From the IMG/VR virus record IMGVR_UViG_3300025770_000006, positions 96,001-160,000 of that record: a DNA stretch of 64,000 nt; one strand, 5' to 3'. Positions 20,057 to 63,670 of this stretch are shown here, in pieces (the stretch's first letter is position 1; each line of letters starts with the position of its first letter). This DNA is from a virus. Made by a program: the position numbers and the translations under genes. The notes below the pieces were generated by a model. The model saw only the letters and a program-made list of their open reading frames with translations. It was not told the DNA's origin and ran no database searches.

Positions 20057-20354
20057 GCCTAAAAGTCGGAGACAAGATATAAGAGAGTTCTTAGTGATAC
20101 ACTTTAAAAGTGAATCACAACCACAGACTGTGGAGAACTGTCTGAACGCTTATATCATACAGAGAGATTTGGGTGGAGACTATAAACTCAAAACCAACGA
20201 GGTTAAAACATCAAAACCCACTAGCAAAAAGTCTCGTGTTCGACTCAGAGATCAGATCGCCCAAGAGCTAGGTGTGGTGAAGCAAATGGGTTTGATATGC
20301 CGTCTAAGATATGGTGTCTATGTTAAGAAGTACCCACCTAGCAGATCACCTTAA
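20055..20354 (+). CDS. small basic protein, putative winged-helix DNA binder, 99 aa
   Basis: C-terminal GLICRLRYGVY resembles a wHTH wing. Confidence 0.5.
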   Translation: MPKSRRQDIREFLVIHFKSESQPQTVENCLNAYIIQRDLGGDYKLKTNEVKTSKPTSKKSRVRLRDQIAQELGVVKQMGLICRLRYGVYVKKYPPSRSP

Positions 20355-20897
20355 ACGCTTATTGATCTCCCTAACTAATGCAGAAGCGTCATCCTCTGGT
20401 TTAAAGTTCGTGTCTAACTCAAAGTTAAACTTCCTGTCTCTGGAACTCACAACCCAATTACCTTTAAAATCATCATACTCGATTTCGATCATTTCCGTTA
20501 GACTCAAACCCTTGCTCGGATAGATTTCGCCACGACCAATGTTTGAGTGTCCAAAAGTATAGTTTTGGAAATGGCAGTCTGTAAAAGGTTGTTTCTCTTC
20601 TAGGAGAGAAACTACTTTTTTGCCATCGTAATGAACCATCACATAGTCCTTAGTCTTAAAACGACCAGTGATTTCTACCTCCCCACTATTCCCGTCTTGC
20701 TTCTTGAACTCAACACTAGAGACATCCCAATCAACACCTGGGTTGTTCTCTTTGAGGTAACCAATCACATTTTCTTCTATTTCAGAAGCTGTCTCAAAGT
20801 ACATCTCACTAGAGATAGGTAGCAACTGAGCTGACTTTTCAAGTCTGGCGACTCTTGATTCAAGGTCATTAATGATTTCTGAAGCTGATCTTCTCAT
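20346..20897 (-). CDS. MRRSASE-leader protein 1 (183 aa), unknown cargo
   Basis: MRRSASEIINDLESRVARLEKSA. Confidence 0.85.
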   Translation of the reverse strand: MRRSASEIINDLESRVARLEKSAQLLPISSEMYFETASEIEENVIGYLKENNPGVDWDVSSVEFKKQDGNSGEVEITGRFKTKDYVMVHYDGKKVVSLLEEKQPFTDCHFQNYTFGHSNIGRGEIYPSKGLSLTEMIEIEYDDFKGNWVVSSRDRKFNFELDTNFKPEDDASALVREINKRLR

Positions 20898-20906
20898 GGG
20901 TCATTC

Positions 20907-21470
20907 TCAATTCTTTCTATACTCAGCTATAGCAGGTGTAAAATACTCCGATAAAATAACCTCTGAGACTAACCCCTTGCGTGTACTCTTGACTCGACCC
21001 AAAGTGTCTCGTAATTGTCTAATTTTTGATTCCATACAAAGACATATATTAGACCCTTTACCAAAATCTTCAGCGTCTAGCTCTAACCAGAAATCAATCT
21101 CGTATTTTATTCCCTTTATCATGAAAGAAACATCACCCCCCCCAAGTATGCTTTGAGAAATTTTCTCGTTATACATAGTCCCAATATTCATATCACTGCT
21201 GTTCATATGGAAGTTGTGTACTTTAATGTTTGTCGCACCTTTAGATTTAAGTGCTTTCATCATTTGTTTAGGGAAAGTCTTTTGTATTTCAATGTCCACA
21301 CCCCTCGCATACGATAAAAGATATTTTCTCTGTTCATTTAAGTCGCCATAGTCATAAGGATAGCCATCGTCTTCTGGATTGCCCTCCTCGTCTTCTGGAT
21401 AGGATCGTTTTTCAAGTCTAGCGACTCTAGTTTCAAGATTACGGATTATTTCTGATGCTGATCTTCTCAT
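20907..21470 (-). CDS. MRRSASE-leader protein 2 (187 aa), unknown cargo
   Basis: start moved to MRRSASEIIRNLETRVARLEKRS; late motif at 21505-21516. Confidence 0.85.
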   Translation of the reverse strand: MRRSASEIIRNLETRVARLEKRSYPEDEEGNPEDDGYPYDYGDLNEQRKYLLSYARGVDIEIQKTFPKQMMKALKSKGATNIKVHNFHMNSSDMNIGTMYNEKISQSILGGGDVSFMIKGIKYEIDFWLELDAEDFGKGSNICLCMESKIRQLRDTLGRVKSTRKGLVSEVILSEYFTPAIAEYRKN

Positions 21471-21504
21471 AATGGACACACCTTTCATCTAAAAGATGAC
21501 GACA

Positions 21505-21516
21505 ATAAATAAACTA
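21505..21516 (-). promoter_or_regulatory. late-type promoter motif TAGTTTATTTAT
   Basis: recurs upstream of the tail tube gene and leader-family genes. Confidence 0.6.
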
Positions 21517-22377
21517 CTAATCATTGGTTTCACACAAGCCCCACCTAAAACAACCGATTTCATCTCTTCCTAGTTGTTCATCTGTGAAAAGTTCTTGTAA
21601 TCCGTCTTGTTTCCCTTTAGCCCAAGATACCGCTTGCCTTATGTTTCCTTTCTTGAAGAAAGTGGCTTGACTCCCTCGCTCCTCAGATACTCTCTTCTCT
21701 AAGTTCTCTAAGTAGTCTATACGATCTGGATCTATTCTAGCCATATTACGAATGTCTGCTTTATTGGAGTATATACAAGGCCAACATCCAACTCTACTAG
21801 AACCCTTTAGATATAGAGGGTTTGGAGAAACACCGTTTTTCTGATGAATGTAAATCACATCTTCTTCTGACCATTCTAAAATAGGTCTGATTTGTGTCGC
21901 TTCGTCTTGCTCCTCTACATATCCAAAAGTAGATCTTCTGATCGACTCCCCTCTTCTAATACCTGTGATGTTAATGGGGAACTTTCGGTTCTTTAAGAAA
22001 ACCTCCACTGCGTAAGTTCGATAACTTACAAGTTTAAGCTCATTAGTACACCATTTTAAGCGTCCATTCGGGAACATTTTTTTCTGTAATACAGCACTCT
22101 CCATACCATAAGCATGATCTTGGTAGTTGAGTTTTTCATTTTGAAGTTTGACTACTTCAACCCCCAAAATATCACTAAGGGTATCTACATACTTATATGT
22201 CAAAGGGTGTTCCCACCCAGTGTCGCAAAACACTGGAGTGAAAGGTATGTTATGTGTTTTTAACAACAACCCGACTGCTGTAGAGTCTTTTCCCCCACTA
22301 CAACTTAAGATTAGAGGTCGATCTGTTTCTTTTAAGAATGCTATCGTTTCTTTTTCAGTGTTTAGTTCTAATGTCAT
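21517..22377 (-). CDS. phosphoadenosine phosphosulfate (PAPS) reductase family / DndC-like PP-loop protein
   Basis: SCSGGKDS PP-loop, DTGWEHP, GIRRGESxRR, RVGCWPC. Confidence 0.85.
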   Translation of the reverse strand: MTLELNTEKETIAFLKETDRPLILSCSGGKDSTAVGLLLKTHNIPFTPVFCDTGWEHPLTYKYVDTLSDILGVEVVKLQNEKLNYQDHAYGMESAVLQKKMFPNGRLKWCTNELKLVSYRTYAVEVFLKNRKFPINITGIRRGESIRRSTFGYVEEQDEATQIRPILEWSEEDVIYIHQKNGVSPNPLYLKGSSRVGCWPCIYSNKADIRNMARIDPDRIDYLENLEKRVSEERGSQATFFKKGNIRQAVSWAKGKQDGLQELFTDEQLGRDEIGCFRWGLCETND

Positions 22378-22397
22378 TGTTCTACCTTTTTAAGAAG

Positions 22398-22458
22398 AGG
22401 TTTAATGACATTATACTATTTAAGGTTTAATGACATTATTATACTATTTAAGGTTTAA
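22398..22458. repeat. tandem duplication (25/28 bp) AGGTTTAATGACATTA(TTA)TACTATTTA upstream of the PAPS reductase gene
   Basis: direct reading; each copy carries TATAAT on the minus strand. Confidence 0.75.
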
Positions 22459-22567
22459 AATAATCGAATAACCTTTTCCAATCAAGAGGGTGTTTTAATC
22501 TGCCGAACTAGTTGTAAGCGATCTTTTGGATCATCTGGTAGGAGATGTGACATCCAACTTGGTGGAT

Positions 22568-23482
22568 TTAATAATACAGTCTTCTCATAGGTCTAGTGAT
22601 TGGGCTTGGTCTTCTAACAAAACCATCGTCAAGTCTAGCAAATCTTTTCTTTTCAACAGGGTACTTTTTAACTTTAGCTCTGTACTTTGTACCTAACTTG
22701 CCCTCTACTTTACCTAGAACTTCACCTCTAGCGATTTCTACAGCCTTAACACCTGCTGGGTTCGCCAACTTACCATAAGCACTTGCACCCACAAAAAGAC
22801 CTGTATCTTGATCTTCCCAAAGAACAAAGAAATGGAACTGACCTGCTCTTGAACCTACTCCCTCTAAATACATTGTACCAATCTCATTATAGTTAGATAC
22901 ACCTGTTTTACTTTCAAGTGCTTGGTAAGCCGATCTGGATAACGCTTCTGTTTTTGATAAATTATCAGAAGAAATCTCGTTATCAAGTTCCTTTTGTTTC
23001 TTATAGTTCTCTCTTCTTCTTGCCTTATCTTCACCCATAGCTTTAGGTTTCGATCTTGGTTCTCTCAAAAACCACCCTTGATCTTCGGCGTGTTCAGCTT
23101 CGCCCACATAACCAGGTTTACCAGACTTTCCCCAACACTCTTTGTGGAAAACTGAAAAAGGAGCATTTTTCGCACTGCCGAGAGGTAGTCGTTTACCATT
23201 CATATTATAGTATCCGTCATAAGCCTCATCAATCTCAACTTTGCCGTTTGGGTGGACAACGACCAACTCACTCATCCATTTAGACTTATCAGACCATGCT
23301 TTAGGTTGTTTTGGAGTACGAACACCTGGGATAACAGGTAGGGGTGTTGTGTCCCATTTAAAGTGGGAAATGATAGACTTGCCACAAGCCATACATTTCC
23401 AAGAACTGAACCCTGCTGTTTTTTCAAGACGAGCGACCCTTGTTTCAAGATTATGGATAATTTCTGATGCTGATCTTCTCAT
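22568..23482 (-). CDS. MRRSASE-leader protein 3 (304 aa): Cys/His (Zn?) domain plus a WGR-like C-terminal domain
   Basis: leader...KTA|GFSSWKCMAC...HKECW; FHFFVL...AYGKL...KVKKY; late motif at 23528-23539. Confidence 0.8.
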   Translation of the reverse strand: MRRSASEIIHNLETRVARLEKTAGFSSWKCMACGKSIISHFKWDTTPLPVIPGVRTPKQPKAWSDKSKWMSELVVVHPNGKVEIDEAYDGYYNMNGKRLPLGSAKNAPFSVFHKECWGKSGKPGYVGEAEHAEDQGWFLREPRSKPKAMGEDKARRRENYKKQKELDNEISSDNLSKTEALSRSAYQALESKTGVSNYNEIGTMYLEGVGSRAGQFHFFVLWEDQDTGLFVGASAYGKLANPAGVKAVEIARGEVLGKVEGKLGTKYRAKVKKYPVEKKRFARLDDGFVRRPSPITRPMRRLYY

Positions 23483-23555
23483 AATGGTTTTCTCCTTTGG
23501 GTTTAAATCATATAAACATGGTGACCAATAAACAAATTACAAAAGGATTTGAATC

Positions 23556-23813
23556 ATGACGAGAGGTAGAAATAAAACACCCGCAGAGAGAGCGTTGGAG
23601 GTCATCTGTACTATGGCTGGTGTCTCATTTGAAGAGTTCGAGGAGCAACTTAAGAAGTCTCAAGGAAACACAGCGACTGAGAGAGCGTTTCCCGAATCCT
23701 CATATAAAATGGTCAAGACGAACTACTTTAAGAACAGTTCAATCAGCCAACAGGAATGGAAAGACCTGTATCAGCACATCACCAACCCGAAGAGCAACTT
23801 TGGGGCTAACTAA
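23556..23813 (+). CDS. hypothetical protein, 85 aa
   Basis: AAAGGA RBS. Confidence 0.7.
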   Translation: MTRGRNKTPAERALEVICTMAGVSFEEFEEQLKKSQGNTATERAFPESSYKMVKTNYFKNSSISQQEWKDLYQHITNPKSNFGAN

Positions 23814-23884
23814 TGCCTTTAATCATATAAGAAAGATATCTACAAACCACTACTGTTCCAATATGAGAAACAGGAGATGAAAAT

Positions 23885-24253
23885 ATGAGTAATAACTTTA
23901 GACCCAAGCGAGGTTCAAGTTTCTTCCTTAAATCAATGCCCCGATCACAGTATGCGTTCGGGATCTGTCTGTCCTCTAAGTCTGATGAAGATGACGAGTA
24001 TAAGATCATTCGCACAGATTTTGCAGATAATCCTTCGGAAGCTCTCAAACTCGCACTCGTACACACAGATATGTTCGACTTCCAAGACACTGACCTTTAC
24101 GGTGTGGTCGAGTGGGATAAGACGATTGTTAAATCTCTGTCCCGTAAGCAACTTTTTGGTAAAGGTCTTGAGGTTCGTTTACTCACACATGACCAAGAGC
24201 AACCCTCCCCTTTTGTCGAGGAAAGCGTAGAAACTCTCTTCATCGAGGATTAG
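23885..24253 (+). CDS. hypothetical protein, 122 aa
   Basis: AGGAG RBS. Confidence 0.7.
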   Translation: MSNNFRPKRGSSFFLKSMPRSQYAFGICLSSKSDEDDEYKIIRTDFADNPSEALKLALVHTDMFDFQDTDLYGVVEWDKTIVKSLSRKQLFGKGLEVRLLTHDQEQPSPFVEESVETLFIED

Positions 24254-48338: not shown

Positions 48339-48367
48339 TCCTATAAGGGTCTTGAAAGGATTTAAGT

Positions 48368-50510: not shown

Positions 50511-50511
50511 A

Positions 50512-51435: not shown

Positions 51436-51436
51436 T

Positions 51437-53449
51437 ATGTTATTTGAAACAACATTCAACGCTGAGAGTTTCTACAAGAAGTTTACACCAATCTTAAAAG
51501 AGATCTCTGTACCAGAAAACTTAGTGCCGTTTGCAGAGTGCTTATCCGAGTATCACGAACTAGACTTAGATATTTCCGTTGAGCCTAAAGTATTTGTAGA
51601 TCCACAAGATGGTGGCGACCAAAAAAAAGCCATCGTTCTTTTATCTGGAGGGATTGATAGTGCTTGGTGTCTCTTATGGGCTTTAGAACAAGGTCTGAAT
51701 CCACAACCTTTATTTGTGGATGGGCTGAACGCTTCTCAAAACTCTCGTGAGCGTAAAGCTGTCCAAGTCTTATGTGATAAGCTAGACCTGCCCCTCATCA
51801 CATATAAACACCCAACCCATCTCAAAAAGCTACATAAAGATCCGTCTAATATATTCAAGATACCAGAGAGCTTTGTGAAACTACAGTATGCTCTGATGGC
51901 AATCAAAGATGACATACGAAAAGAGGGCATAGCAGGGGTCATTGTCACCTGCCCTACTAACCAACCCGAATACATTGACCCTACTGCACCTAAGAAAGAA
52001 AATGGGGAACCGCTGACATGGTTTCAAGACTCAGAAGAGTCTATGGAAACTTTCTTACCGTTCCTCTCCGATTATATTGGGTGGGGTTTTAAAGGATACT
52101 ACCCTGTCACCATGAAAGAGCAGAAGATAAAAGCTCTAATGGACAAAGGGATCTTTGAAGATACCTGCTCGTGCGTATGCAATCCTATGTTCTTTTCGGG
52201 TCATCGTAAGAGATCAAAACCCAAGTATTCCAATATGTGCGGCGTGTGTTGGAAGTGCAAAGAAAACCTAGCTTTCATCAGTAAACTTAACCGAGATGAT
52301 GAAGTCGTTGAAGATGAGATGCCAGAAGAGCCTCAAATGAAACCTTGGCAAAAAGGATATGAGTTAGATTATCTTAAAAGCGTAGAGGGTCAGTTCAACG
52401 CTTTTAATGACCTGTGTATTTCCCCATTCCTACAGATGAAAAAAAATAAAGTCGCAGACCACTTACACGATGGCACTTTAATCCTTAAAGACGGATTTAG
52501 GTGCATCCTTAAAAAGTCTAAAACTAGAACGAGTATAAAAGTGTACTCGAATAGGGATCACACCCTCGCTTATAAAGATGTAGGCGAGTTCGCTATGGGT
52601 AAGTTAGTCATTGATGATGTGAGTGAGTTTAAAGAATACTGCGATAAGATTGATCAGAACATTTGGGTCATCAGCTTTGACTCGATTGAGAAAGATCTTC
52701 TCTCATGCGGGTTTGTTAAGCTAGGATATAAATACACCTCCTTTGGTGATGATCTCACTGTGTTCCTTTTGCAAAAGCAAATCGACTTTTTCGGTACGAA
52801 CACAAATAGACTAATCTTTAATGACCCTTTAGAAAGAGCTACCTGTGTGAAACTCGACTCCAACTTTGAGGTTGAGTCCATCGCAGATAAGTTAGCCGCT
52901 TACGAATTTAAGAAGCACTACTCCAACTACAATAGTGGTGGGTGGTCAGCTATCAGTCTAAGAGGGTTTAGCGATGACCCCTCCTTCATTATCAAACCAG
53001 AAGAGATGAATGATAAATGGACGGAGCAAAACTCAGAGACAGATTTCTATCTGAGAGACACCGAAGCGTATGAATATTTTAGCGAGGTAAGGGAGATCAT
53101 AAACACAGTCGCCCCAAACCAAAAGATCGAGAGGGTGAGAATAATGAAGCTCTCTGAAGGATCTGAGATTAAAAAGCATACTGATCTAGTAGATCCAGAT
53201 TGTGGTGTCGGGGTAGGAGAAACAGCAAGGTTTCATGTGCCGATTAAAACAAAAGATGCTGTCTTTGAGGTATGGGGACAAAATGGTAAAGAGTCATTCT
53301 CTTTAGAGAAGGGTTCTCTATGGTATCTCGACACAAGAAAACCACACCGAGTCATTAACCCAACCAGCGATAGATACCATCTTGTTTTTGATGTCTTTGT
53401 TGATCAAGAAATAAGAGAACTTATCAAGAGATGCTTAAATGTTCTTTGA
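51437..53449 (+). CDS. fusion of a QueC-like PP-loop ATPase, a central (GNAT-like?) domain and an Asp/Asn beta-hydroxylase-type 2OG-Fe(II) dioxygenase, 670 aa
   Basis: VLLSGGIDS, CSC...CGVCWKC; HTD...RFHVP...PHRVIN...RYHLVFD. Confidence 0.8.
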   Translation: MLFETTFNAESFYKKFTPILKEISVPENLVPFAECLSEYHELDLDISVEPKVFVDPQDGGDQKKAIVLLSGGIDSAWCLLWALEQGLNPQPLFVDGLNASQNSRERKAVQVLCDKLDLPLITYKHPTHLKKLHKDPSNIFKIPESFVKLQYALMAIKDDIRKEGIAGVIVTCPTNQPEYIDPTAPKKENGEPLTWFQDSEESMETFLPFLSDYIGWGFKGYYPVTMKEQKIKALMDKGIFEDTCSCVCNPMFFSGHRKRSKPKYSNMCGVCWKCKENLAFISKLNRDDEVVEDEMPEEPQMKPWQKGYELDYLKSVEGQFNAFNDLCISPFLQMKKNKVADHLHDGTLILKDGFRCILKKSKTRTSIKVYSNRDHTLAYKDVGEFAMGKLVIDDVSEFKEYCDKIDQNIWVISFDSIEKDLLSCGFVKLGYKYTSFGDDLTVFLLQKQIDFFGTNTNRLIFNDPLERATCVKLDSNFEVESIADKLAAYEFKKHYSNYNSGGWSAISLRGFSDDPSFIIKPEEMNDKWTEQNSETDFYLRDTEAYEYFSEVREIINTVAPNQKIERVRIMKLSEGSEIKKHTDLVDPDCGVGVGETARFHVPIKTKDAVFEVWGQNGKESFSLEKGSLWYLDTRKPHRVINPTSDRYHLVFDVFVDQEIRELIKRCLNVL

Positions 53450-54614
53450 ATATAAGACTGAACTTAACTCACTAGACGACATTGAATATATTAAAGATGG
53501 CTATCTTCACATACGCCCTAACGAATGGAGTATGCTTCGTGAGAAATATACTAAGGAAGATATCAAAGACCATATCGCACCCATCGTTGAGTCTTTACCT
53601 TATCCTTACTCTGAGTACACAACGGAGTCTGCAAAGAAGGACTTCATAAGCCTCAAAGCGAAAAAAGAGCCATTCGTATTTGATGAATGGGTAGCACCAC
53701 GCCAAGCTACTCCCCTAGAGACTACTTATCTAGGTAAGCACATTTACCTCAACAGCTATTACAAAGGTAAAGAGGTGTCTAACCTGTTCACTCAAGAACA
53801 GAGGATGAAATGTAGCTATCGCACACAAGGTAACTCACCTTATGACGAATGGGTCAACGCTAGTAAGAATAACTCGTTCCTACGATGCTTCTTCGGTATC
53901 TGTGAAAATGACATTTATGAGAGGGGTGGGGTCAATAAACAAACCCTTAGAAGAGCATTGAAGATGCACACATATATGGCTAGTCAGTTCAAAGCTGAGT
54001 CTGCTAAAGCTCTCTATGATCTGTTCCAATCTAAAAGCGTCTTAGATTTCTCAGCAGGTTGGGGTGATAGGTTAGTAGGCTTCCTAGCTTCAAATGCCGA
54101 CTCCTATATTGGGATTGATCCTAATACTAAGCTCCATGAACCATATCAGCAAATCGTCAACCTCTGTGATACAGGTAAAGAGGTTAGGTTTATTTGCTCA
54201 CCTGCTGAAAATGCTGACCTCTCTGATGTCAAAGTAGACTTTATCTTTACGAGCCCACCATACTTTGACATCGAAAGGTACAGTACAGAGTCCACACAAT
54301 CATGGAAGCGATACCCAGACCTTAAGGATTGGGTCAATGATTTCTTACTCGCTACCCTCACCAAGTGCTGGTCTGCACTTAAAGATGGTGGCCGGATAGC
54401 CATCAACATTGCGGATAAAAAAGGAGAGGACATCTGCACTCCTATGCTTGAACACATGAAGAATTTAGGGGCTACATATGAAGGGGTGATAGGATATCGA
54501 ATGTCTGAGCGTGGTGGTCAGAAAACAGATTGCCCTACTTGTGAGCCGATCTTTATTTGGAGTAAGGGTTTAACACCCGAACCTAAATGGAATTATAATG
54601 AGTATTTTTTTTGA
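53439..54614 (+). CDS. DNA amino-methyltransferase, paralog 4
   Basis: DFSAGWGDR, FTSPPYF. Confidence 0.88.
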   Translation: MFFEYKTELNSLDDIEYIKDGYLHIRPNEWSMLREKYTKEDIKDHIAPIVESLPYPYSEYTTESAKKDFISLKAKKEPFVFDEWVAPRQATPLETTYLGKHIYLNSYYKGKEVSNLFTQEQRMKCSYRTQGNSPYDEWVNASKNNSFLRCFFGICENDIYERGGVNKQTLRRALKMHTYMASQFKAESAKALYDLFQSKSVLDFSAGWGDRLVGFLASNADSYIGIDPNTKLHEPYQQIVNLCDTGKEVRFICSPAENADLSDVKVDFIFTSPPYFDIERYSTESTQSWKRYPDLKDWVNDFLLATLTKCWSALKDGGRIAINIADKKGEDICTPMLEHMKNLGATYEGVIGYRMSERGGQKTDCPTCEPIFIWSKGLTPEPKWNYNEYFF

Positions 54615-56146: not shown

Positions 56147-56293
56147 TTAACAATGATCCTCTTCTATTAAAGGTTGCGAATCTATCTTTCTCAACATCTC
56201 CTTTGGGTCAAGCTCATCAACAGAAGAATTATTCTGCGAGATTGACCCACAAGAGAAAAGAAAAAAGAGGAATAAAGAAAAAAGAAGTCTCAT
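56147..56293 (-). CDS. small lipoprotein, 48 aa (not in ORF track)
   Basis: hand translation MRLLFSLFLFFLFSCGSISQNNSSVDELDPKEMLRKIDSQPLIEEDHC; late motif at 56336-56347. Confidence 0.55.
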   Translation of the reverse strand: MRLLFSLFLFFLFSCGSISQNNSSVDELDPKEMLRKIDSQPLIEEDHC

Positions 56294-56334: not shown

Positions 56335-56383
56335 TATAAAGAAACTACAAATCCTCGTCATATTCCTGTTGAGCGAGGATTAA
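56335..56383. repeat. short copy of the late motif plus the 3' end of the actin-like gene (matches 56843-56895 except for a 4-bp deletion)
   Basis: TATAAAGAAACTACAAAT...CCTCGTCATATTCCTGTTGAGCGAGGATTAA. Confidence 0.85.
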
Positions 56384-56796
56384 GCCTCTTTTACTTCAAT
56401 CTCTTTATGGTCATAGATAACTTGGAAAGTCATCTTATGAACATAATTTTCAACCCCAAAAAGTTGAAGTTTTCTGGGTCTATCCATCGTACACTTAACC
56501 TCAACTATTAGATCCCCAGCAAGATTAATAGATCGATACCCAAGAACTTTAATGTCTAAGTCGTCTGGTGTGTCTTCGGGAATATCAAAATCAAAAAAAC
56601 CCTCGATGCCCAAGAAAAAGTCATATAAAGCGTCTTCTACCCAGTTTGATCTAACTCTTGACCCCGATAGTTTGCTTAAATCTTTTGCTATCGTGGTGGA
56701 TAGGCTCTTGAGGGTTTCTTCCCGACTTGATTGTTTTTCAAGTCTAGCGATTCTTGACTCAAGGTTACGGATAATTTCACTAGCTGATCTTCTCAT
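56380..56796 (-). CDS. MRRSASE-leader protein 4 (138 aa)
   Basis: MRRSASEIIRNLESRIARLEKQSS; late motif at 56844-56855. Confidence 0.85.
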   Translation of the reverse strand: MRRSASEIIRNLESRIARLEKQSSREETLKSLSTTIAKDLSKLSGSRVRSNWVEDALYDFFLGIEGFFDFDIPEDTPDDLDIKVLGYRSINLAGDLIVEVKCTMDRPRKLQLFGVENYVHKMTFQVIYDHKEIEVKEA

Positions 56797-56859
56797 GGTT
56801 TACTCCAGTGGTTTAAGGTTAATGAGATCACTTATGAGAAGATATAAAGAAACTACAAA

Positions 56860-56995
56860 TCAATCCTCGTCATATTCCTGTTGAGCGAGGATTAACATAC
56901 CCTTAGAGACAGCGTGAAGCGGGTCAGAAGCATGACGAACCTCTGAGATCTCGATAGGGGAACGCTTTTTCTTAGTCTCAAAGACCTCCCTAAAG
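56860..56995 (-). pseudogene. 136-bp duplicated 3' end of the actin-like gene (copy of 57470-57605)
   Basis: 6 mismatches, 5 of them synonymous third positions in HASDPLHA. Confidence 0.85.
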
Positions 56996-57005: not shown

Positions 57006-57395
57006 TTAACCAACAATGACAGTGTTAGGTCGATCAACCATGTTTGTTTGATACCTGTCCATTAACTCCGCATCAGTATCGAGGATGGCTTTGTTAATTT
57101 CTACTTCAACGCAAAAATGCACTTTGCTTGACGAGATTGTCTTTACATTAGAGACAATACCCATTTGCCGAAGGTTTACCATATCAGACATGAAAGAGGA
57201 AACTGCTGATTTTAGAGTAGATGGATAAAGGTGCGTGAAGCAATACTCATTAGCATGGGAGTTAAAATTCATTAAAATAACACATTCATCTCCGTCAATT
57301 ATTCTGGTATTGTATGCCGCAGTTTTACTTTTACCTTCAAGTCGTGCGATCCTAGACTCAAGATTTCTGATTACTTCACTAGCTGATCTTTTCAT
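57006..57395 (-). CDS. MRRSASE-leader protein 5 (129 aa)
   Basis: start moved to MKRSASEVIRNLESRIARLEGKSKTA; late motif at 57444-57455. Confidence 0.85.
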   Translation of the reverse strand: MKRSASEVIRNLESRIARLEGKSKTAAYNTRIIDGDECVILMNFNSHANEYCFTHLYPSTLKSAVSSFMSDMVNLRQMGIVSNVKTISSSKVHFCVEVEINKAILDTDAELMDRYQTNMVDRPNTVIVG

Positions 57396-57469
57396 TATAG
57401 TTCTCCATTTTGTTAAGGTTAAAGAGATCACTTAAGACCAATTATAAATAAACTATTAACCTTGACAGC

Positions 57470-58471
57470 TCAATCCTCGTCATATTCCTGTTGAGCGAGG
57501 ATTAACATACCCTTAGAGACAGCATGGAGAGGGTCTGACGCATGACGAACCTCTGAGATCTCGATAGGGAAACGCTTTTTCTTAGTCTCAAAGACCTCCC
57601 TAAAGAAGTCCATGAATCCACCTGCGAGACTTGTACCACCACCCACTACGATTGGAATGGGTTTGTTAAGGGTGAGGTGTCCACCTTTCATCACAAACTG
57701 CTGTGCGATGTTATCTAAAGCGTGTTCAATAAGAGCCTTATAATAGAACGAGATCGCTTCTTCTTCTCTATTCTTAGGTGCTTTAAGGTCAATGCCCTTC
57801 TCTTTTACCGCACACATTTTAGAAGCTGTTGCACCTACTGATCGAGCCGCTCCTTGATCAATCCAATCACCACCACGAGCAACGGAGAAGGATAACCCCT
57901 CAATGGTGCTGATAGCGAGAGCGATATTGGTCATACCAGAACCGAAACTAATCCCGACACCAGAAAAACCTTCCTTTGCAGTCTCTGCGAAGACGATAGC
58001 CATAGCTTCGTTGGCGGGGTGTGCAGTATATCCACATTCTTGAACGATGCGAGTGAATACACCCTTATGATAAACAACATCCATATTAGCGTCCACAGGA
58101 GCCGCAGGGATTGAGAAATAACAATGCTCTCCCTCATGGCTAGGGTCACCGAGAACATCTTTGACCATATGTCCGAGAACGGTAAGGGAGTCGATCTCAT
58201 CAGCAGAGATAAGACCTGCTTTAAGGGGTCTACGACCTTCTCTACCGAACATATTAGCTACTTCCATAGCTTCATCCCCAAGTACAAGTAGATTGTCGTC
58301 AGCTTCGATGTATGACACCGAGCCGAGTTTGAGCATCTTTTTAGCCGAAGATGGGAGATCAATAAAGAGGTCACGCATCCTTCTTAGAGTTACTTCATTT
58401 TTCTTAGCACCACTCATGCGAGCAGACACCAAGTTCATAGTTCCAATGTCAAGTCCTACACCTTTACTCAT
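57470..58471 (-). CDS. actin-like ATPase (MreB/ParM/FtsA superfamily)
   Basis: phosphate-1 GLDIGT, connect-1 NEAMA, phosphate-2 ISFGSGMT, adenosine VGGGTS. Confidence 0.85.
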   Translation of the reverse strand: MSKGVGLDIGTMNLVSARMSGAKKNEVTLRRMRDLFIDLPSSAKKMLKLGSVSYIEADDNLLVLGDEAMEVANMFGREGRRPLKAGLISADEIDSLTVLGHMVKDVLGDPSHEGEHCYFSIPAAPVDANMDVVYHKGVFTRIVQECGYTAHPANEAMAIVFAETAKEGFSGVGISFGSGMTNIALAISTIEGLSFSVARGGDWIDQGAARSVGATASKMCAVKEKGIDLKAPKNREEEAISFYYKALIEHALDNIAQQFVMKGGHLTLNKPIPIVVGGGTSLAGGFMDFFREVFETKKKRFPIEISEVRHASDPLHAVSKGMLILAQQEYDED

Positions 58472-59136
58472 TGTTTATTTGCCTTTCTTAATGCTTTCAA
58501 AGCAGAGAGAGCATCCGAGAGTTCTTCAGAACCTTCGGATTTTGTTTCATTCGCCAGAGACTCTGAGGAGGCTATGGTCTTATTAGAGATAATGTTAGAT
58601 GGGATAAAGGTCAATCCTTCATCGGCTGTTGTGTTCATATTACCCATAGGTTGATTGCTTTGAGCGTTATTGTTCACGACAACCTGTTGAGTGGGCATCT
58701 GTTTAGCGACAGCTTCAGCGATAGCTTCGGGAGAGATCATTGTCCCTAACTGTTGGATAAGGATATTAGCAAGAGCGTTCATGTCTAATTGTGGTTGCTC
58801 TGTTTGTTTCTCTACAATCACTTCCTTTTCTACTATCACTTCCTTTTCGACTATCACTTCCTTTTCGACTATCTTCTCAACCACTACAGGTCTTACTTCT
58901 TTAACTACCTTTGACTCATGAATGATTTTAAATCTGTTATTGCTGTTTACCCCTAGTCGAGAGGGAGATGGATTGCCTTTAACCTTGAGAGCGATCAATC
59001 CTGTGTTGACTAAAGTCTTTAGTTCTTGGTTTGAGTCATATTGGGATTTAGTGCAATCAAAGGTCTGCCCTTGTTTGAACTTGAGTCGAAGACTCTTAAT
59101 CTCTATATCTTTAAGGCACTGTGCTACATAAATCAT
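58468..59136 (-). CDS. hypothetical protein with (EKEVIV)n repeats, 222 aa
   Basis: ATGA-coupled to both neighbours. Confidence 0.75.
   Translation of the reverse strand: MIYVAQCLKDIEIKSLRLKFKQGQTFDCTKSQYDSNQELKTLVNTGLIALKVKGNPSPSRLGVNSNNRFKIIHESKVVKEVRPVVVEKIVEKEVIVEKEVIVEKEVIVEKQTEQPQLDMNALANILIQQLGTMISPEAIAEAVAKQMPTQQVVVNNNAQSNQPMGNMNTTADEGLTFIPSNIISNKTIASSESLANETKSEGSEELSDALSALKALRKANKQ
58809..58875 (-). repeat. 18-bp tandem repeat encoding EKEVIV
   Basis: TC(G/T)ACTATCACTTCCTTT units. Confidence 0.8.
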
Positions 59137-59705
59137 TGTTCGCCCTTGCTCATACTTTTAGTAAGAAAGAAAGTAGCCTTTCGTATAGCTTTTATTCTAC
59201 CCTTCTCAATCCCTTGCTCGATGAAGTTAAACTTATAAACTGATGGGTGTATCCATTTGTTTTCTGTTCTAAGAGGAAGATTTCTGAAAACTACTTCACC
59301 TGTTTTTGTCTTAATAGGTACGACCTTCCTTTCCATGTTAGAGTTACGAGTCAACCACCTCATTTCATAAGGATCTTTGCGTTCAAGATACTTTTTGACC
59401 CATTGCCACTCTGACTTGATCTTGATCGCCCCCCCTTTAGATATCTCATAATAAAAGGAGTCTAGGAAATCTTTGGTGCGAGGAATACCACTGCCGAGTC
59501 CTGATGCTCTTTTCGCTTCCTCTTTGATTGCCTTTATTATCTCATCCCCGAAGATCTCTATGACCTTTTTAGAGATGTCTTTGCCTCTTAGGTCAACATT
59601 CTGGAACTGATTTTTACGCACCTTATAAGTACGGAGATCCCAAGGTCTATTTGGATCTCTGTTCTTTGGTGGGTTTCTTCGTGCTCGTCTAGGGTCAAAC
59701 TTCAT
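59133..59705 (-). CDS. basic protein, possible neck/tail-completion protein, 190 aa
   Basis: WIHP...FIEQG C-terminal block; GGAGG RBS; late motif at 59736-59747. Confidence 0.55.
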   Translation of the reverse strand: MKFDPRRARRNPPKNRDPNRPWDLRTYKVRKNQFQNVDLRGKDISKKVIEIFGDEIIKAIKEEAKRASGLGSGIPRTKDFLDSFYYEISKGGAIKIKSEWQWVKKYLERKDPYEMRWLTRNSNMERKVVPIKTKTGEVVFRNLPLRTENKWIHPSVYKFNFIEQGIEKGRIKAIRKATFFLTKSMSKGEQ

Positions 59706-60191: not shown

Positions 60192-60656
60192 ATGAGCGAT
60201 AAATGGAAAGCAGGACCTGAAGTCCAAGAGCAGATTAATCATCTCATCGGAAACGCACACCCACACTTGGCTGACATCATGAATGACATTGTAGTCATCT
60301 TTAAAGAGAAGTGTTCACGCAAGGGTGGTCGCCCTATTCTCGGTAAGACCTCAAAAGCACCAGGGATCTTGTCTGTCCTTGGGGATCACGCATACGAGTT
60401 TGTCATTGAGCTTGGGGCAGACTGTTGGAACAACCTTAAAGAGAATGAGCGTATGGCTCTACTTGACCATCTTCTCTGCTTCATCGGAGGTGAAGAAGAC
60501 GAGAAATCGGGTGAGATGAAGTATTATCTCTCGACTCCCGATGTCTTTTATTTCTCTGAGGAAGTTGCTCGTAATGGGAGTTGGCGTGAGGAGATCCTAC
60601 CCGATGGTGTACCCGAAGAGGGTTCAGACGCACCTTTGTTAGACCCTATCGGTTAA
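60192..60656 (+). CDS. phage metallopeptidase-like protein with a degenerate HExxH motif
   Basis: ALLDHLLCF in place of ALxDHELxH; GGAGG RBS. Confidence 0.65.
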   Translation: MSDKWKAGPEVQEQINHLIGNAHPHLADIMNDIVVIFKEKCSRKGGRPILGKTSKAPGILSVLGDHAYEFVIELGADCWNNLKENERMALLDHLLCFIGGEEDEKSGEMKYYLSTPDVFYFSEEVARNGSWREEILPDGVPEEGSDAPLLDPIG

Positions 60657-61231
60657 AGGTCTAACCACCTTTTGAGTTCATTGCGATAGTTCTCACCCTT
60701 GTTGATGTAGTGGCTAACGATTTCATTAGACATGAACCTCATGTGGCATCCGATTGTCCAACGAAGATCACCCTTTCGATCAATCGAAGCATTTTCAAGT
60801 GTCAACATGAAATGGGGATCTTCAGACCCATCAAGAAGTGTTCCTGACTGTAGCACTCGCCGATAATCCCCACCGCTCAGTTTAAATGCCTTTCGTCTAG
60901 GGTCAAACTTTACATACTTTGGGAAAGTCTTATCAAAGGATTCTGATACGGTACCATCAGTATCGAGCTTATGTAGTGATGAAAGAATCTTCATAATATC
61001 TACAACTTCGTCATACAACTCGATATACAACTCTTGGGTAGGGGTGGTTTCTTCTTCTTGTCCAAAGTAATCATCTTTAAAAATCTTTGAGTCATCTTCA
61101 TAGTATGATCTCTCTGCGTCATACATATTAGAGTCAAAATAACCTTGTGGGTATCCTGCTGTCCTTTGGTTTTCAAGACGAGCGATTCTTGACTCAAGGT
61201 TTCTGATTACTTCTGATGCTGATCTTCTCAT
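60653..61231 (-). CDS. MRRSASE-leader protein 6 (192 aa)
   Basis: MRRSASEVIRNLESRIARLENQRTA; TAGTTTACCTAT motif at 61286-61297. Confidence 0.85.
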   Translation of the reverse strand: MRRSASEVIRNLESRIARLENQRTAGYPQGYFDSNMYDAERSYYEDDSKIFKDDYFGQEEETTPTQELYIELYDEVVDIMKILSSLHKLDTDGTVSESFDKTFPKYVKFDPRRKAFKLSGGDYRRVLQSGTLLDGSEDPHFMLTLENASIDRKGDLRWTIGCHMRFMSNEIVSHYINKGENYRNELKRWLDL

Positions 61232-61315
61232 GGGCTGTTCCTTTCATATAAGAACAATGGTATAAAAACACACCTAATGTTAATTATAGGTAAACTATTA
61301 AAAAGGAGTATTGAT

Positions 61316-61801
61316 ATGAAGTACGCAAAATTTGAAAAGATTGATGGAAAAGATCAACTTGTCGTTGTGACCCGTGATGAACTCATTCATTTGGTTGGGT
61401 CAGAAGAAGTGGATCAATACATCTTTGATAATGGGTATACAGACCACTCTGACGAGACATTCAATAACTACCAAGAGATGACCGCACAGACTGCAAAGTA
61501 CCCCCCATCTCAAGCTCTTGAGTACCTTTCACTCGGTATTGCATCTGAGGCGGGAGAGGTAGCAGGTAAGATGAAGAAATGGATTCGAGATGATTCCAAA
61601 CTTTGGGAGATTGAAAAAGAGGAGGCTAAACAAAAGTGGGTTCAAGCGATGTCATCAGAGATTGGGGATGTTCTCTGGTATTGTGCCCGACTCGCAGATG
61701 AGCTTGGTCTAAGTCTCTCTCAGATTGCAGAAGAGAATATGGAGAAGCTCTTAGATCGAAAGGCTCGTGGTGTTATCGGTGGTAGTGGGGATAACCGATG
61801 A
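61316..61801 (+). CDS. MazG-like nucleoside triphosphate pyrophosphohydrolase
   Basis: SEAGEVAGKMKK...EIGDVLWY...NxxKLxxRxxRGVIGGSGDNR; start moved after AAGGAG. Confidence 0.88.
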   Translation: MKYAKFEKIDGKDQLVVVTRDELIHLVGSEEVDQYIFDNGYTDHSDETFNNYQEMTAQTAKYPPSQALEYLSLGIASEAGEVAGKMKKWIRDDSKLWEIEKEEAKQKWVQAMSSEIGDVLWYCARLADELGLSLSQIAEENMEKLLDRKARGVIGGSGDNR

Positions 61802-61855
61802 GGTTTATAAACTGTTTATAATCTCCTTTAGTTATAAAAACTGAGGTTAGTTTAT

Positions 61856-62539
61856 ATGAGACTAGTTTGCATTTCAGACACACACAACCAGCACGATAAA
61901 CTTGAGTTGCCCGATGGGGATGTTCTAATCCACGCAGGAGATTGGACAGGTACAGGTACGCAAAAGCAAGTTATCTCATTTATAAGATGGTTTGCGAATC
62001 AGCCACATAAACATAAAGTCTTGATTGCAGGAAATCATGAGGTGACTCTTGACTCACCTTTTTATCGTACTAACTGGCCTAGATTCCACCCTCAACAACC
62101 CCACAGTTCACATGATATCTCTAACTATGTGTTGAGAGAAGAGGGCATCCACTACCTTGAGGATACAGAGGTGGTTATAGAGGGTGTTAAGTTTTACGGT
62201 AGTCCATGTCAGCCCTCTTTTGGTGGTTGGGCTTTTAATGTAGACAGGGGTTTACCGATACGATCTGTATGGGGGAATATACCCGATGACACTGATGTCT
62301 TGATAACTCATGGGCCTCCACATGGATATGGAGATAAGTTAGCTTGTGGAGAGCGTGTGGGCTGTAAAGATTTACTTGATGAGGTAACGACAAGAATCAA
62401 GCCCAAAGTCCATATTTACGGACATATACATGAAGGGTATGGCACATACGACTTAGAGGGTATAAAGCTAATTAACCCTTCTAGTTGTAATGAGCATTAT
62501 AAGATTACAAATAAGCCTATCATATATGACTTAGAATAA
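61856..62539 (+). CDS. calcineurin-like metallophosphoesterase
   Basis: SDTH, HAGD, GNHE, THGPP, GHIHE. Confidence 0.9.
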   Translation: MRLVCISDTHNQHDKLELPDGDVLIHAGDWTGTGTQKQVISFIRWFANQPHKHKVLIAGNHEVTLDSPFYRTNWPRFHPQQPHSSHDISNYVLREEGIHYLEDTEVVIEGVKFYGSPCQPSFGGWAFNVDRGLPIRSVWGNIPDDTDVLITHGPPHGYGDKLACGERVGCKDLLDEVTTRIKPKVHIYGHIHEGYGTYDLEGIKLINPSSCNEHYKITNKPIIYDLE

Positions 62540-62653
62540 CTTGTTTTCAAGTCGTGCTATTCTTGATTCGAGTCTGAAGCTGATCTTTTCATAATGGTTT
62601 CTCCATTTGGTTAAGGTTAAAGAGATCACTTAAGATCAAGTATAAATAAACTA
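62540..62653 (-). pseudogene. empty MRRSASE cassette: promoter, RBS and frameshifted leader, no cargo
   Basis: ATG AAA AGA TCA GCT TCA GA|CTC GAA TCA AGA ATA GCA CGA CTT GAA AAC; upstream region nearly identical to that of 57006..57395. Confidence 0.8.
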
Positions 62654-62659
62654 TCAAAC

Positions 62660-63670
62660 CTAGTATGGCTCTCTGAAATCTAGGTTTTCTCCCTCAAGGA
62701 GATGAGCAATAAAATTAAGCTCCTTCTTACTTAGACCTCTAAAAGTAAGAGTTGTTTCTAGGTGTCCAGACTCATTTAAGACAGCTTCTGTGAAATGATC
62801 CTCTACACCCCAAGCATATCCAGCATAAACGGAAGAACTATCTTGCTCAAGTACTATTGAAGAGGGTTTGACCTCGACAGACATTAAACCCTCTATTTCA
62901 CCAAACTCACTCTTAACTGCTTCCTCAATGTCTTCCCCCCTCAACTGACCCTTATCTTCCCAAGTAGCGATTATATCCCTATCATCCATAAGTTTGTGGG
63001 TGAGTGTGTAGGTAGTATTTATTCGAGCTGTCTTGTTTTCAAGTCGAGCGACTCTTGATTCAAGACTGTTAATTATTTCACTAGCTGATCTTCTCATCCC
63101 TGCGATCTCCATATCTTTGAGTATTCTATTTAGAACTTTCTTGACTCTACGATCTCTAGTCAAAGAGAGGGCTTTTTCAAAGTCTCCGCTCCATAGTGCG
63201 TCATATTTTTCAGACATTTCATCTCTAAACTCTGGGTCATAGATATAAAGCATTGGTTCATGCTTTTCGATAGCCTCGATTAAGAGATGTTTTACGGACG
63301 AGTGTCTTTTCATGATGTATTCACTTTGTTTGCTTGTGGATGGAAAAGGGGTTGGGTTATATTTAGCCGCCATATCAACCATCTCACGATCTTCATGTGT
63401 GAGTCTTTGTCGATACCAGTCAGAACCCATAGTGATAAGTGCATAATTAGTACGGTCTAAAGATCTCTCCATTTTAGAGAGGTGCTTAGGGATGGCTTCA
63501 AAGTTATCCCCACAACGCTTGTATACTTCTTCTGCGAGTTGCGGGTGTTCTTTGATAGCTTCTACCATCTGGTTGACATGACTACGAACAATGTGAGCTT
63601 CTACACGAGAGGCTGAGACACCTTCAGATAAAATAGACCAAGATGCTTGGCTTGAAGATTTCTTTTTCAT
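62660..63670 (-). CDS. 336-aa multi-module protein with an internal MRRSASE leader (copy 7)
   Basis: start moved to MKKKSS; internal MKRHSS (63313) and MRRSASEIINSLESRVARLENKTA (63097); motif TAGTTCTTCTAT at 63706-63717. Confidence 0.8.
   Translation of the reverse strand: MKKKSSSQASWSILSEGVSASRVEAHIVRSHVNQMVEAIKEHPQLAEEVYKRCGDNFEAIPKHLSKMERSLDRTNYALITMGSDWYRQRLTHEDREMVDMAAKYNPTPFPSTSKQSEYIMKRHSSVKHLLIEAIEKHEPMLYIYDPEFRDEMSEKYDALWSGDFEKALSLTRDRRVKKVLNRILKDMEIAGMRRSASEIINSLESRVARLENKTARINTTYTLTHKLMDDRDIIATWEDKGQLRGEDIEEAVKSEFGEIEGLMSVEVKPSSIVLEQDSSSVYAGYAWGVEDHFTEAVLNESGHLETTLTFRGLSKKELNFIAHLLEGENLDFREPY

What the first reader, a model, noticed from the sequence alone, without database searches (positions are those of the whole stretch)
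20346..63097. Dispersed MRRSASE leader family: one conserved ~22-aa tag on unrelated cargo proteins, a candidate virion-packaging or delivery system
Seen: eight minus-strand copies of M(R/K)RSASE(I/V)Ix(N/D/S)LE(S/T)R(V/I)ARLE, starting at 20897, 21470, 23482, 56796, 57395, 61231, 63097 (internal) and 62592 (remnant). Similarity stops right after the leader and the cargo parts show no mutual similarity. Each intact leader is followed by K/R-x-A/S (KSA, KRS, KTA, KQS, KTA, RTA, KTA) and itself begins R-S-A. Each cassette, or its operon, sits behind the TAGTTxxTTTAT motif also found before the tail-tube operon. Synonymous codons vary between copies, so the peptide is what is conserved. Established: T4 internal proteins use a short N-terminal capsid-targeting sequence removed by the prohead protease. 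Inference: this is an analogous modular address label, an amphipathic coiled-coil docking helix plus a cleavage site. It would let the phage load a swappable set of effectors, possibly anti-defence, into the head for injection.
Basis: partly seen in the sequence, partly recalled or inferred. Interest (0 to 1): 0.92.

Follow-up and report, generated by a model that had tools for sequence, protein, structure and literature searches.

The report
Leader-tagged swappable cassettes, jumbo phage
An uncultured ~375-kb phage puts the same 24-residue N-terminal helix on dozens of unrelated small late proteins carried in fast-swapping gene cassettes, most likely as a T4-style label for loading them into the head, but packaging has not been shown.

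Summary
The window has seven intact copies and one broken copy of the leader M-R-R-S-A-S-E-[IV]-I-x-x-L-E-x-R-[IV]-A-R-L-E-[KR]-x-[AS], all on the minus strand at the stated coordinates. The seven cargos show no mutual similarity.

The leader is not private to this genome. It heads at least 1,109 protein clusters (50% identity) in public metagenomes. A complete 375,691-bp syntenic relative, G001, has about 30 copies.

Codon use shows selection on the peptide. An AF2 model gives helix 5-22, a floppy linker, then an independent globular domain.

Between the window and G001 the flanking genes are 75-97% identical, but the cargos differ. Homology breaks at the end of the leader.

The TAGTTNNTTTAT motif also precedes the major-capsid, portal, protease/scaffold and baseplate operons of G001, so it marks a structural (probably late) promoter class. 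G001 encodes a probable head-maturation protease; its link to T4 gp21 is weak.

Two-module proteins repeat the second half of the leader at the module junction.

Best reading (about 0.5): a cleavable capsid-targeting tag, working like the T4 CTS on internal proteins but unrelated in sequence and lacking T4's cut motif. Packaging and cleavage are untested.

This scan noted the same kind of system before on other DNA (e1-5373611 and others).

The parts
20346..20897 (-). Leader-cargo gene, 183 aa. Second gene of a two-gene operon with 20907-21470.
   Evidence: AF2 gives helix 5-22, a disordered stretch 25-29, then a globular alpha/beta domain. No fold match. Homologs P0163-P0170 all keep the leader.
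20907..21470 (-). Leader-cargo gene, 187 aa counted from the leader ATG at 21470.
21505..21516 (-). Promoter motif TAGTTTATTTAT, 46 nt before the ATG at 21470.
22568..23482 (-). Leader-cargo gene, 304 aa, basic cargo with CxxC. Homology to the relative G001 resumes at 23413, the end of the leader.
23528..23539 (-). Promoter-like motif TAATTTGTTTAT (1 mismatch).
56380..56796 (-). Leader-cargo gene, 138 aa.
56844..56855 (-). Promoter motif TAGTTTCTTTAT.
56855..56995 (-). 141-nt copy (94% identical) of the 3' end of the volactin-like gene (57465-57605), displaced in front of the 56796 cassette.
57006..57395 (-). Leader-cargo gene, 129 aa from the ATG at 57395 (MKRSASE variant).
57444..57455 (-). 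Promoter motif TAGTTTATTTAT.
56350..56383 (-). 34-nt hairpin-forming element. It occurs three times exactly (also at 56862-56895 and 57472-57505), each time just upstream of a promoter motif.
60653..61231 (-). Leader-cargo gene, 192 aa. Homology to G001 resumes at 61179, inside the leader.
62540..62653 (-). Empty, broken cassette. Promoter at 62642-62653, then RBS and ATG at 62592. A 13-nt deletion is followed by out-of-frame LESRIARLEN codons. No cargo.
62660..63097 (-). Leader plus cargo (145 aa) fused in frame behind the first ~200 codons of a gene that in G001 is a separate 191-aa protein without a leader.

Best explanation
SHOWN. The window belongs to an uncultured jumbo phage about 80% identical in DNA to a complete 375,691-bp IMG/VR genome (G001). 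In this clade a cassette recurs about 30 times per genome. Each cassette consists of an optional hairpin, the promoter TAGTTNNTTTAT, a conserved 5'UTR with a GGAG ribosome-binding site, a 24-codon leader and a variable cargo. The cassettes sit at fixed hot spots between conserved genes. The cargo is exchanged by recombination whose junction lies at the end of the leader. The peptide itself is under purifying selection. It is an amphipathic heptad helix joined by a floppy linker to an independent domain.

INFERRED. The leader works like the capsid-targeting sequence of T4 internal proteins. It is made late, together with head proteins. The helix would dock the precursor onto the scaffolding core of the prohead. 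The invariant second half, R-[IV]-A-R-L-E-[KR]-x-[AS], would be the processing site of the phage's prohead protease. The mature cargo would stay in the head and enter the host with the DNA. Two-module proteins that keep this half-motif at the junction would then be cut into two cargos. What the cargos do is unknown; anti-defence or host take-over is a guess by analogy with T4 IPI.
For: Scale and modularity:
- 104 distinct leader proteins occur in 69 IMG/VR loci, and 101 of them start at the leader Met.
- 1,109 clusters at 50% identity carry the leader, nearly all at residues 1-28.
- G001 has 30-31 copies.
- 240 cargos fall into 155 BLAST clusters, 105 of them singletons, with lengths of 70-396 aa.
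- AF2 shows a helix, a disordered linker and a globular domain.

Selection on the peptide:
- Over 100 distinct leader DNAs, R15 uses six codons, R18 uses six, and S6 uses both codon families, while the residues stay 98-100% conserved.
- pN/pS is 0.34.
- Residues on all faces of the helix are conserved: A5, S6, E7, L12, E13, R15, A17, L19, E20. This fits recognition by a common partner better than a plain zipper.

Expression class:
- In G001 the motif precedes the operon 344 aa/1171 aa/protease/scaffold-like, the MCP operon, the portal operon and a baseplate-wedge gene.
- 20 of 30 leader genes carry the motif 34-55 nt before the ATG, against 45 of 418 other genes.
- No exact motif lies in the replication block of the window.

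Protease:
- G001 52134-53582 matches phrog_18299 'head maturation protease' at E 4.9e-14.
- It lies directly upstream of an acidic scaffold-like gene and the MCP.
- T4 gp21 (5jbl_A; Z 4.8, rmsd 4.1, 127 aligned) ranks highest of the three listed matches that cover its N-domain.

Half-motif at module junctions:
- It occurs in about 10 of 150 representatives and in G001_191203.
- Module 2 is elsewhere a stand-alone leader-cargo protein, aligned from leader residue ~14 in the clearest case.

Precedent:
- SPN3US head proteins gp45 and gp225 have 20-24-residue propeptides removed by a prohead protease that cuts after AXE (PMC10052503).
Against: - There are no virion proteomics or N-terminal data, and no cultured relative. 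A tblastn of the leader against 50,697 GenBank phage records found nothing.
- The leader has no [LI]-x-E (the T4 gp21 motif). Its only AXE is A5-S6-E7, which would remove just seven residues.
- The cut site is therefore a guess, either after E20 or after [AS]23.
- The protease call rests on one PHROG hit and on a weak structural match from a poor model (pLDDT 53).
- The half-motif at module junctions could be a recombination scar, because cassette breakpoints cluster in the same place.
- The resemblance of the scaffold-like protein (NARVARLADNA) to the leader is short. It is only loosely conserved in the G003 homolog.
- Late expression is inferred from promoter sharing only.
- LR745208.1 has the protease family (44% identity) but not this leader.
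Confidence: 0.5

Rival explanations
1. Structural docking plug. The helix anchors interchangeable small domains to a common socket on the finished virion (head decoration, fibre or baseplate hub). It would work as the conserved N-terminal anchors of exchangeable receptor-binding proteins do, with no cleavage and no injection.
For: - The promoter class is shared with structural genes.
- The design is a conserved N-terminus with a variable C-terminus.
- The helix has a heptad pattern suited to bundling.
Against: - About 30 different cargos per genome would compete for one socket.
- The cargos are mostly 70-250 aa orphan domains. No adhesin-like, Ig-like or fibre-like family was detected.
- One cargo carries membrane helices (G001_197858).
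- Repetition of the half-motif between modules has no role in this model.
Confidence: 0.15
2. Intracellular handle. The helix binds a common partner in the infected cell rather than the virion. Candidates are a host target, a chaperone, a degradation adaptor that times the proteins' lifetimes, or the phage's volactin-like filament. Alternatively it simply dimerises the proteins as a short leucine zipper.
For: - The a/d heptad has I/V at a and L at d, with a possible g-e' pair R15/E20 (reading from general coiled-coil rules).
- Cassettes sit directly downstream of the volactin-like gene both in the window and in G001.
Against: - Conservation covers all helix faces and the N-terminal MRRSASE stretch, which is not expected for a zipper.
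- Adjacency to the filament gene holds for only 2 of 8 window copies and 1 of about 30 G001 copies.
- Promoter sharing with head and tail operons points to virion assembly.
Confidence: 0.2
3. No peptide function. The leader is kept because it belongs to a DNA/RNA unit (promoter, 5'UTR, efficient initiation region) that serves as the homology arm for cassette exchange and is homogenised by gene conversion.
For: - Homology between the window and G001 ends at the leader's end.
- The promoter, UTR and RBS are co-conserved.
- Codons 2-4 (AGA AGA TCA), GAA7, CTT12 and CTT19 are 78-98% fixed (about 90% apart from TCA at codon 4), against 20-39% genome usage. Some constraint therefore acts on nucleotides.
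- T4-type PeSL cassettes are a precedent (PMC2839356).
Against: - Synonymous change is free at A5, S6 (TCA/AGT), I8, I9, E13, R15, I16, A17, R18 and E20, while the amino acids are 87-100% conserved over 100 distinct DNAs from many genomes.
- Within one cargo family that has diverged to 43% identity, the RVARLEK half is still kept.
- Both levels can hold together, but DNA constraint alone does not explain the data.
Confidence: 0.07
4. Ordinary paralog family. The cargos are one fast-diverging family and the leader is simply its best-conserved part.
For: Small phage proteins diverge fast. Within single cargo families the leader co-evolves with the cargo.
Against: - Cargo lengths run from 70 to 396 aa in 155 BLAST clusters.
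- One cargo is a WGR domain, a family that exists without this leader.
- Cargos combine as modules in different pairings.
- A disordered linker separates the leader from the domain.
- Only one cargo was folded, so fold diversity was not tested directly.
Confidence: 0.03

Closest known systems
Capsid targeting sequence (CTS) of phage T4 internal proteins IPI, IPII, IPIII and Alt, removed by prohead protease gp21 (PMC3012670; Mullaney and Black 1996, as cited in PMC10052503)
   Same: - A short conserved N-terminal peptide sits on otherwise unrelated, fast-changing small proteins.
- The genes lie in hypervariable loci.
- A probable prohead protease is encoded in the close relative G001; its placement in the gp21 family is weak.
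- The design is a targeting part followed by a putative cut site.
   Different: - There is no sequence similarity to the T4 CTS.
- The leader has 24 residues rather than about 10.
- It has no [LI]-x-E motif.
- There are about 30 tagged genes per genome, against a handful in T4.
- Each cassette carries a structural-class promoter.
- Packaging and cleavage are untested here.
PeSL (promoter-early stem-loop) mobile regulatory cassettes of T4-type phages (PMC2839356, PMC4122927)
   Same: - A conserved composite of stem-loop, promoter and Shine-Dalgarno sequence flanks ORFans in hyperplastic regions and acts as the site of homologous exchange.
- The phage has T4-like recombination genes: UvsX-like and Dda-like hits in G001.
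   Different: - Here the conserved arm runs 72 nt into the coding sequence and encodes a selected peptide.
- The promoter belongs to the structural class, not the early sigma-70-like class.
- Mini-circle intermediates were not tested.
Propeptides of giant-phage head and ejection proteins cut by gp21-like proteases (SPN3US gp245, motif AXE; phiKZ gp175) (PMC10052503, PMC5694885)
   Same: - The setting is a jumbo phage in which many proteins may be loaded into the head.
- Short 20-24-residue N-terminal propeptides exist there (gp45, gp225).
- Those proteases cut after Glu.
   Different: - Those propeptides are not one shared sequence spread over dozens of unrelated proteins.
- Here the only AXE is at residues 5-7.
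Encapsulation peptides of bacterial microcompartments and cargo-loading peptides of encapsulins (own knowledge, not tested here)
   Same: A terminal amphipathic helix plus a flexible linker addresses diverse cargo to a protein shell.
   Different: - Those systems serve cellular compartments, not a virion.
- Their peptides are not removed.
- There is no sequence relation.

Membership tests
T4-type CTS / internal-protein system | One short N-terminal peptide shared by otherwise unrelated proteins of one phage | tested here: met
T4-type CTS / internal-protein system | Sequence similarity of the tag to the T4 CTS, ending in the gp21 motif [LI]-x-E | tested here: not met
   The leader consensus has no [LI]-x-E. 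Its Glu residues follow S6, L12 and L19.
T4-type CTS / internal-protein system | A gp21-family prohead protease encoded by the phage | tested here: inconclusive
   G001 52134-53582 matches phrog_18299 at E 4.9e-14. T4 gp21 5jbl_A scores Z 4.8 (rmsd 4.1, 127 aligned) on a model with pLDDT 53. Pfam PF03420 found nothing, and its control rang nowhere. The gene lies outside the window.
T4-type CTS / internal-protein system | Tagged proteins are present in the head and the tag is removed during maturation | not testable with these tools
   No cultured relative and no proteome.
T4-type CTS / internal-protein system | Tagged genes lie in hypervariable loci and differ between close relatives | tested here: met
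PeSL-type mobile regulatory cassettes | A conserved promoter + stem-loop + SD unit flanks variable ORFs | tested here: met
   Promoter and UTR. The stem-loop was seen at the three junctions next to the volactin-like gene only.
PeSL-type mobile regulatory cassettes | Exchange junctions fall within the conserved unit | tested here: met
   Homology to G001 resumes at 23413, 56731, 57337 and 61179, that is at or inside the leader's last codons.
PeSL-type mobile regulatory cassettes | Early sigma-70-like promoter; circular excision intermediates | tested here: not met
   The promoter motif is the one used by capsid, portal and baseplate operons. Circular intermediates were not testable.

The most novel reading that the evidence does not exclude
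In a clade of marine jumbo phages the same 72 nt would serve two roles. It would be the protein address label for head loading, and also the homology arm that lets cargo genes move. That would amount to an integron-like exchange system for injected proteins, holding more than 1,100 orphan protein families, about 30 per virion, with polyprotein-like precursors cut at repeats of the half-leader.
Probability: 0.35. Interest if true: 0.85.

Novelty: new variant of a known kind. Interest (0 to 1): 0.68.

Why it matters
- **Loading of the head.** If the tag does load proteins into the head, it gives a sequence-searchable catalogue of more than a thousand candidate injected proteins from uncultured jumbo phages. 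Almost all of them have no known fold or family. This is the class in which anti-defence and host take-over factors are expected.
- **Evolution of the repertoire.** It would show how such a repertoire evolves, through a tag whose coding DNA is also the exchange site.
- **Practical use.** A 24-residue tag with a defined protease could be used for loading foreign proteins, as the T4 CTS is.
- **If the tag does not address the capsid.** A peptide this widespread and this conserved would still point to an unknown common partner.

Tried and rejected
- **Complex prediction.** Two copies of the 30-residue leader (alignment A4) gave no verdict (score 0.06 against a mark of 0.42). This is not used as evidence either way.
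- **Fold searches.** The one folded cargo found nothing convincing in PDB (Foldseek) or BFVD (best E about 0.01).
- **Pfam and PHROGs on cargos.** The seven window cargos, 99 locus cargos and 142 representatives gave only one WGR domain. A weak hit to phrog_19498 (E about 0.02) covers only the leader.
- **GenBank phages.** Megablast of 20000-24000 and tblastn of the 25-residue leader against 50,697 phage records found no match.
- **Head genes of G001 by Pfam family.** PF03420, PF07068, PF03237 and PF17289 gave no match. For the first two the controls rang nowhere, so they say nothing.
- **PDB sequence searches.** The protease and two window tail-operon proteins gave nothing usable. The 'tail tube' label of 40183-41043 stays unverified.
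- **Scaffold idea.** I considered that the scaffold-like protein carries the leader's cut motif. R[IVT]ARL occurs in it and in only one other non-leader protein of G001 (0.3 expected). It is only loosely kept in the G003 homolog, so it remains a lead only.
- **Palindrome idea.** A palindrome CTTGAATCAAG in the leader DNA depends on Ser at position 14 and is absent from most copies, so I dropped it.

Full report
**1. The observation**

A six-frame scan of the window for the leader finds eight places, all on the minus strand.
- Seven are intact leaders, with ATG at 20897, 21470, 23482, 56796, 57395 and 61231, plus one at 63097 inside a longer ORF.
- The eighth is a broken copy with ATG at 62592.

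Fourteen of the first 22 residues are invariant among the seven. After residue ~24 the proteins cannot be aligned. All seven cargos are singletons in an all-against-all BLAST at E 1e-3, and none has a Pfam family.

The broken copy keeps its promoter, RBS and first seven codons. A 13-nt gap follows, then out-of-frame LESRIARLEN codons that end against the convergent phosphoesterase gene.

The internal copy at 63097 is a fusion. The first ~200 codons of that ORF match a separate 191-aa leaderless gene in the relative G001 (68% identity). The leader and its cargo replace that gene's end.

**2. Selection acts on the peptide, with some nucleotide constraint**

Among the seven window copies pN/pS is 0.34. 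I also compared 100 distinct leader DNAs from many contigs.
- Arg15 is 100% conserved yet uses six codons.
- Arg18 uses six codons.
- Ser6 switches between TCA and AGT.
- Ala5, Ile8, Ile9, Glu13, Ala17 and Glu20 vary freely at third positions.

The protein is therefore what is kept. However, codons 2-4 (AGA AGA TCA), GAA7, CTT12 and CTT19 are 78-98% fixed (about 90% apart from TCA at codon 4), while the same codons make up 20-39% of their families in the relative's genes. Some constraint on DNA or mRNA acts too. I have no firm explanation for it.

**3. Reach of the family**

Back-translated leader patterns pulled 69 loci from IMG/VR. A leader HMM finds 104 distinct leader proteins in them. Of these, 101 begin with Met at leader position 1, and many lie in tandem runs.

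A profile of 40 leaders, searched against 1.84 billion representative proteins, finds 1,109 clusters at E <= 0.001. Nearly all carry the match at residues 1-28. None of the members looked up carries a name other than 'hypothetical protein'.

One IMG/VR record, G001 (375,691 bp, CheckV 100%), is syntenic with the window at 74-83% DNA identity. It has 30-31 leader genes spread over the whole genome. Three further large records have 11-12 each.

The 485-kb GenBank record LR745208.1 shares the volactin-like gene (61% identity) and the protease family (44% identity). It has no such leader.

**4. Cargo diversity**

The 240 cargos fall into 155 BLAST clusters, of which 105 are singletons. Median protein length is 141 aa, with a range of 70-396.

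Pfam recognises one WGR domain among 142 representatives and nothing meaningful among 99 locus proteins. One cargo in G001 has membrane helices.

For the window protein 20346-20897 I collected eight homologs down to 43% identity. All keep the leader, and its second half is the better conserved part.

AF2 on that alignment gives a helix at residues 5-22, a disordered stretch at 25-29, then a confident alpha/beta domain (pLDDT 80-95). That domain has no convincing match in PDB or BFVD.

Over all leaders the conserved part runs to position 24, as [KR][QKS][AS][SAG].

**5. Cassettes and hot spots**

Genes flanking the window's leader genes have orthologs in G001 at 75-97% amino-acid identity. The cargos match G001 only through the leader, at non-syntenic places. 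The same intergenic slots are occupied in both genomes by different cargos.

Homology with G001 resumes at 23413, 56731, 57337 and 61179. These points are at or within the last codons of the leader, and homology then continues through the RBS, promoter and the neighbouring gene.

Next to the volactin-like gene the window has two cassettes where G001 has one. The second cassette is preceded by a 141-nt copy (94% identical) of that gene's 3' end. A 34-nt hairpin from that end occurs three times without a single change, each time just before a promoter motif.

This is the signature of duplication and exchange through the conserved junction. It resembles the PeSL cassettes of T4-type phages (PMC2839356). 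G001 has UvsX-like and Dda-like genes.

**6. The promoter class**

The exact motif TAGTTNNTTTAT occurs 7 times in the window against 0.26 expected, and 48 times in G001. There, 44 of the 48 lie 22-126 nt before a start codon.

With PHROGs I located the head genes of G001:
- major capsid protein, 48887-49765 (phrog_2522, E 2e-51);
- portal, 75305-76981 (phrog_16240);
- a 482-aa protein, 52134-53582, matching 'head maturation protease' (phrog_18299, E 4.9e-14);
- an acidic 513-aa EF-hand protein between the protease and the capsid operon that looks like a scaffold;
- a baseplate wedge homolog, 249403-250443.

The motif stands before the operon that ends in protease and scaffold, before the capsid operon, before the portal operon and before the baseplate gene.

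Twenty of 30 leader genes have the motif (at most one mismatch) 34-55 nt before the ATG, against 45 of 418 other genes. No exact copy lies in the replication and DNA-modification block of the window.

The cassettes therefore belong to the structural promoter class. That this class is 'late' is an inference.

**7. The protease**

The AF2 model of the 482-aa protein is poor (mean pLDDT 53). In a search of 48,161 PDB representatives, most listed rows fall on its C-terminal helices. Three rows cover its N-domain, and the T4 prohead protease gp21 ranks highest of them (5jbl_A, Z 4.8, rmsd 4.1, 127 residues aligned). The other two, at Z 3.7, are an HMG-CoA reductase and a designed ferredoxin-fold protein.

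Alone this is weak. Together with the PHROG hit and the gene's position it makes a head-maturation protease likely, possibly gp21-like.

Proteases of that fold cut after Glu: T4 after [LI]-x-E, by established knowledge, and SPN3US gp245 after AXE (PMC10052503). The leader has invariant Glu at positions 7, 13 and 20, but no [LI]-x-E, and AXE only at 5-7.

**8. The half-motif**

In about ten of the 150 best representatives, and in one G001 protein, a second copy of only x-R-[IVT]-A-R-L-E-[KRGN]-x-[AS] lies between two domains.

The second domain is found elsewhere as a stand-alone leader-cargo protein. In the clearest case the alignment starts at leader residue 14. First domains likewise exist alone.

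This is what a processing site in a two-cargo precursor would look like. It could also be a scar of recombination at the leader's 3' half, so I count it as moderate support.

**9. Reading**

What is shown:
- a modular, peptide-selected N-terminal helix on very many unrelated small proteins;
- its place in structural-class cassettes;
- turnover of those cassettes at hot spots.

What is inferred is its job. The closest working model is the T4 capsid-targeting sequence. T-even internal proteins are diverse, fast-changing defence-related proteins that share only the CTS, which loads them onto the scaffolding core (PMC3012670).

I give this reading about 0.5. The rivals are:
- a docking plug on the finished virion (0.15);
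- a handle for an intracellular partner, or a zipper (0.2);
- conservation for DNA or RNA reasons only (0.07, disfavoured);
- a plain paralog family (0.03).

It is not a member of the T4 CTS family by sequence or by cut motif.

**10. Limits**

- The head genes lie outside the window and were studied in the relative.
- Only one cargo was folded.
- Only the best 150 of the 1,109 clusters could be read.
- The complex prediction gave no verdict.
- Earlier notes of this scan describe the same kind of system on other genomes. I used them as leads only.

Noticed in passing
window 57470-58471 (-), with 58468-59136 and 59133-59705 upstream: An actin-family gene matches Pfam Volactin (E 5e-75). It is 97% identical to its G001 ortholog and 61% to one in the 485-kb record LR745208.1. 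It is the last gene of a three-gene operon. The middle gene has a VEKE(V/I)I repeat.
   Followed up: partly
window codons 2-4, 7, 12 and 19 of every leader (e.g. 56785-56793): AGA AGA TCA, GAA, CTT and CTT are 78-98% fixed over 100 distinct leaders (about 90% apart from TCA at codon 4), against 20-39% genome usage. Neighbouring codons vary freely. This is an unexplained constraint at the nucleotide level inside a peptide-selected leader.
   Followed up: partly
L073:10555-12096 (-) = G001 50555-52096: An acidic 513-aa protein with an EF-hand (Pfam E 1e-7) lies between the protease and the capsid operon and is scaffold-like. It carries two repeats of (R/K)LADNAVQVGT(E/D)Y. One is preceded by NARVARLA, which resembles the leader's RVARLE. 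The repeat is only loosely kept in the G003 homolog.
   Followed up: partly
window 56147-56293 (-): A 48-aa lipoprotein-like ORF (signal ending LFSCGS) lies behind its own promoter motif and a third copy of the 34-nt hairpin. It occupies a cassette slot but has no leader.
   Followed up: no
window 21517-22377 (-): A PAPS-reductase-like gene (phrog_424, E 1e-57) sits inside the cassette island between leader genes. It is absent from the corresponding slot of G001.
   Followed up: partly
window 45815-54614 (+): Four paralogous ~400-aa proteins start MFF(E/D)(Y/I) and give weak DNA-methyltransferase PHROG hits. They lie in a block with a QueC-like and an acetyltransferase/ABC-like protein, which is probably a DNA-modification cluster.
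   Followed up: no
window 6699-15818 (+): A 3,039-aa protein has no Pfam or PHROG hit. It is 75% identical to its G001 ortholog and lies in an operon behind the structural promoter motif at 6038.
   Followed up: no
L074:18106-19827 (+) = G001 78106-79827: A 573-aa protein next to the portal operon has the full leader at residues 303-325, followed by a WGR-domain cargo. It is a fusion of a 300-aa N-terminal part with a leader-cargo module.
   Followed up: partly
L073:7474-8385 (-) = G001 47474-48385: A LAGLIDADG homing-endonuclease homolog (phrog_11023, E 6e-20) lies two genes downstream of the major capsid gene.
   Followed up: no
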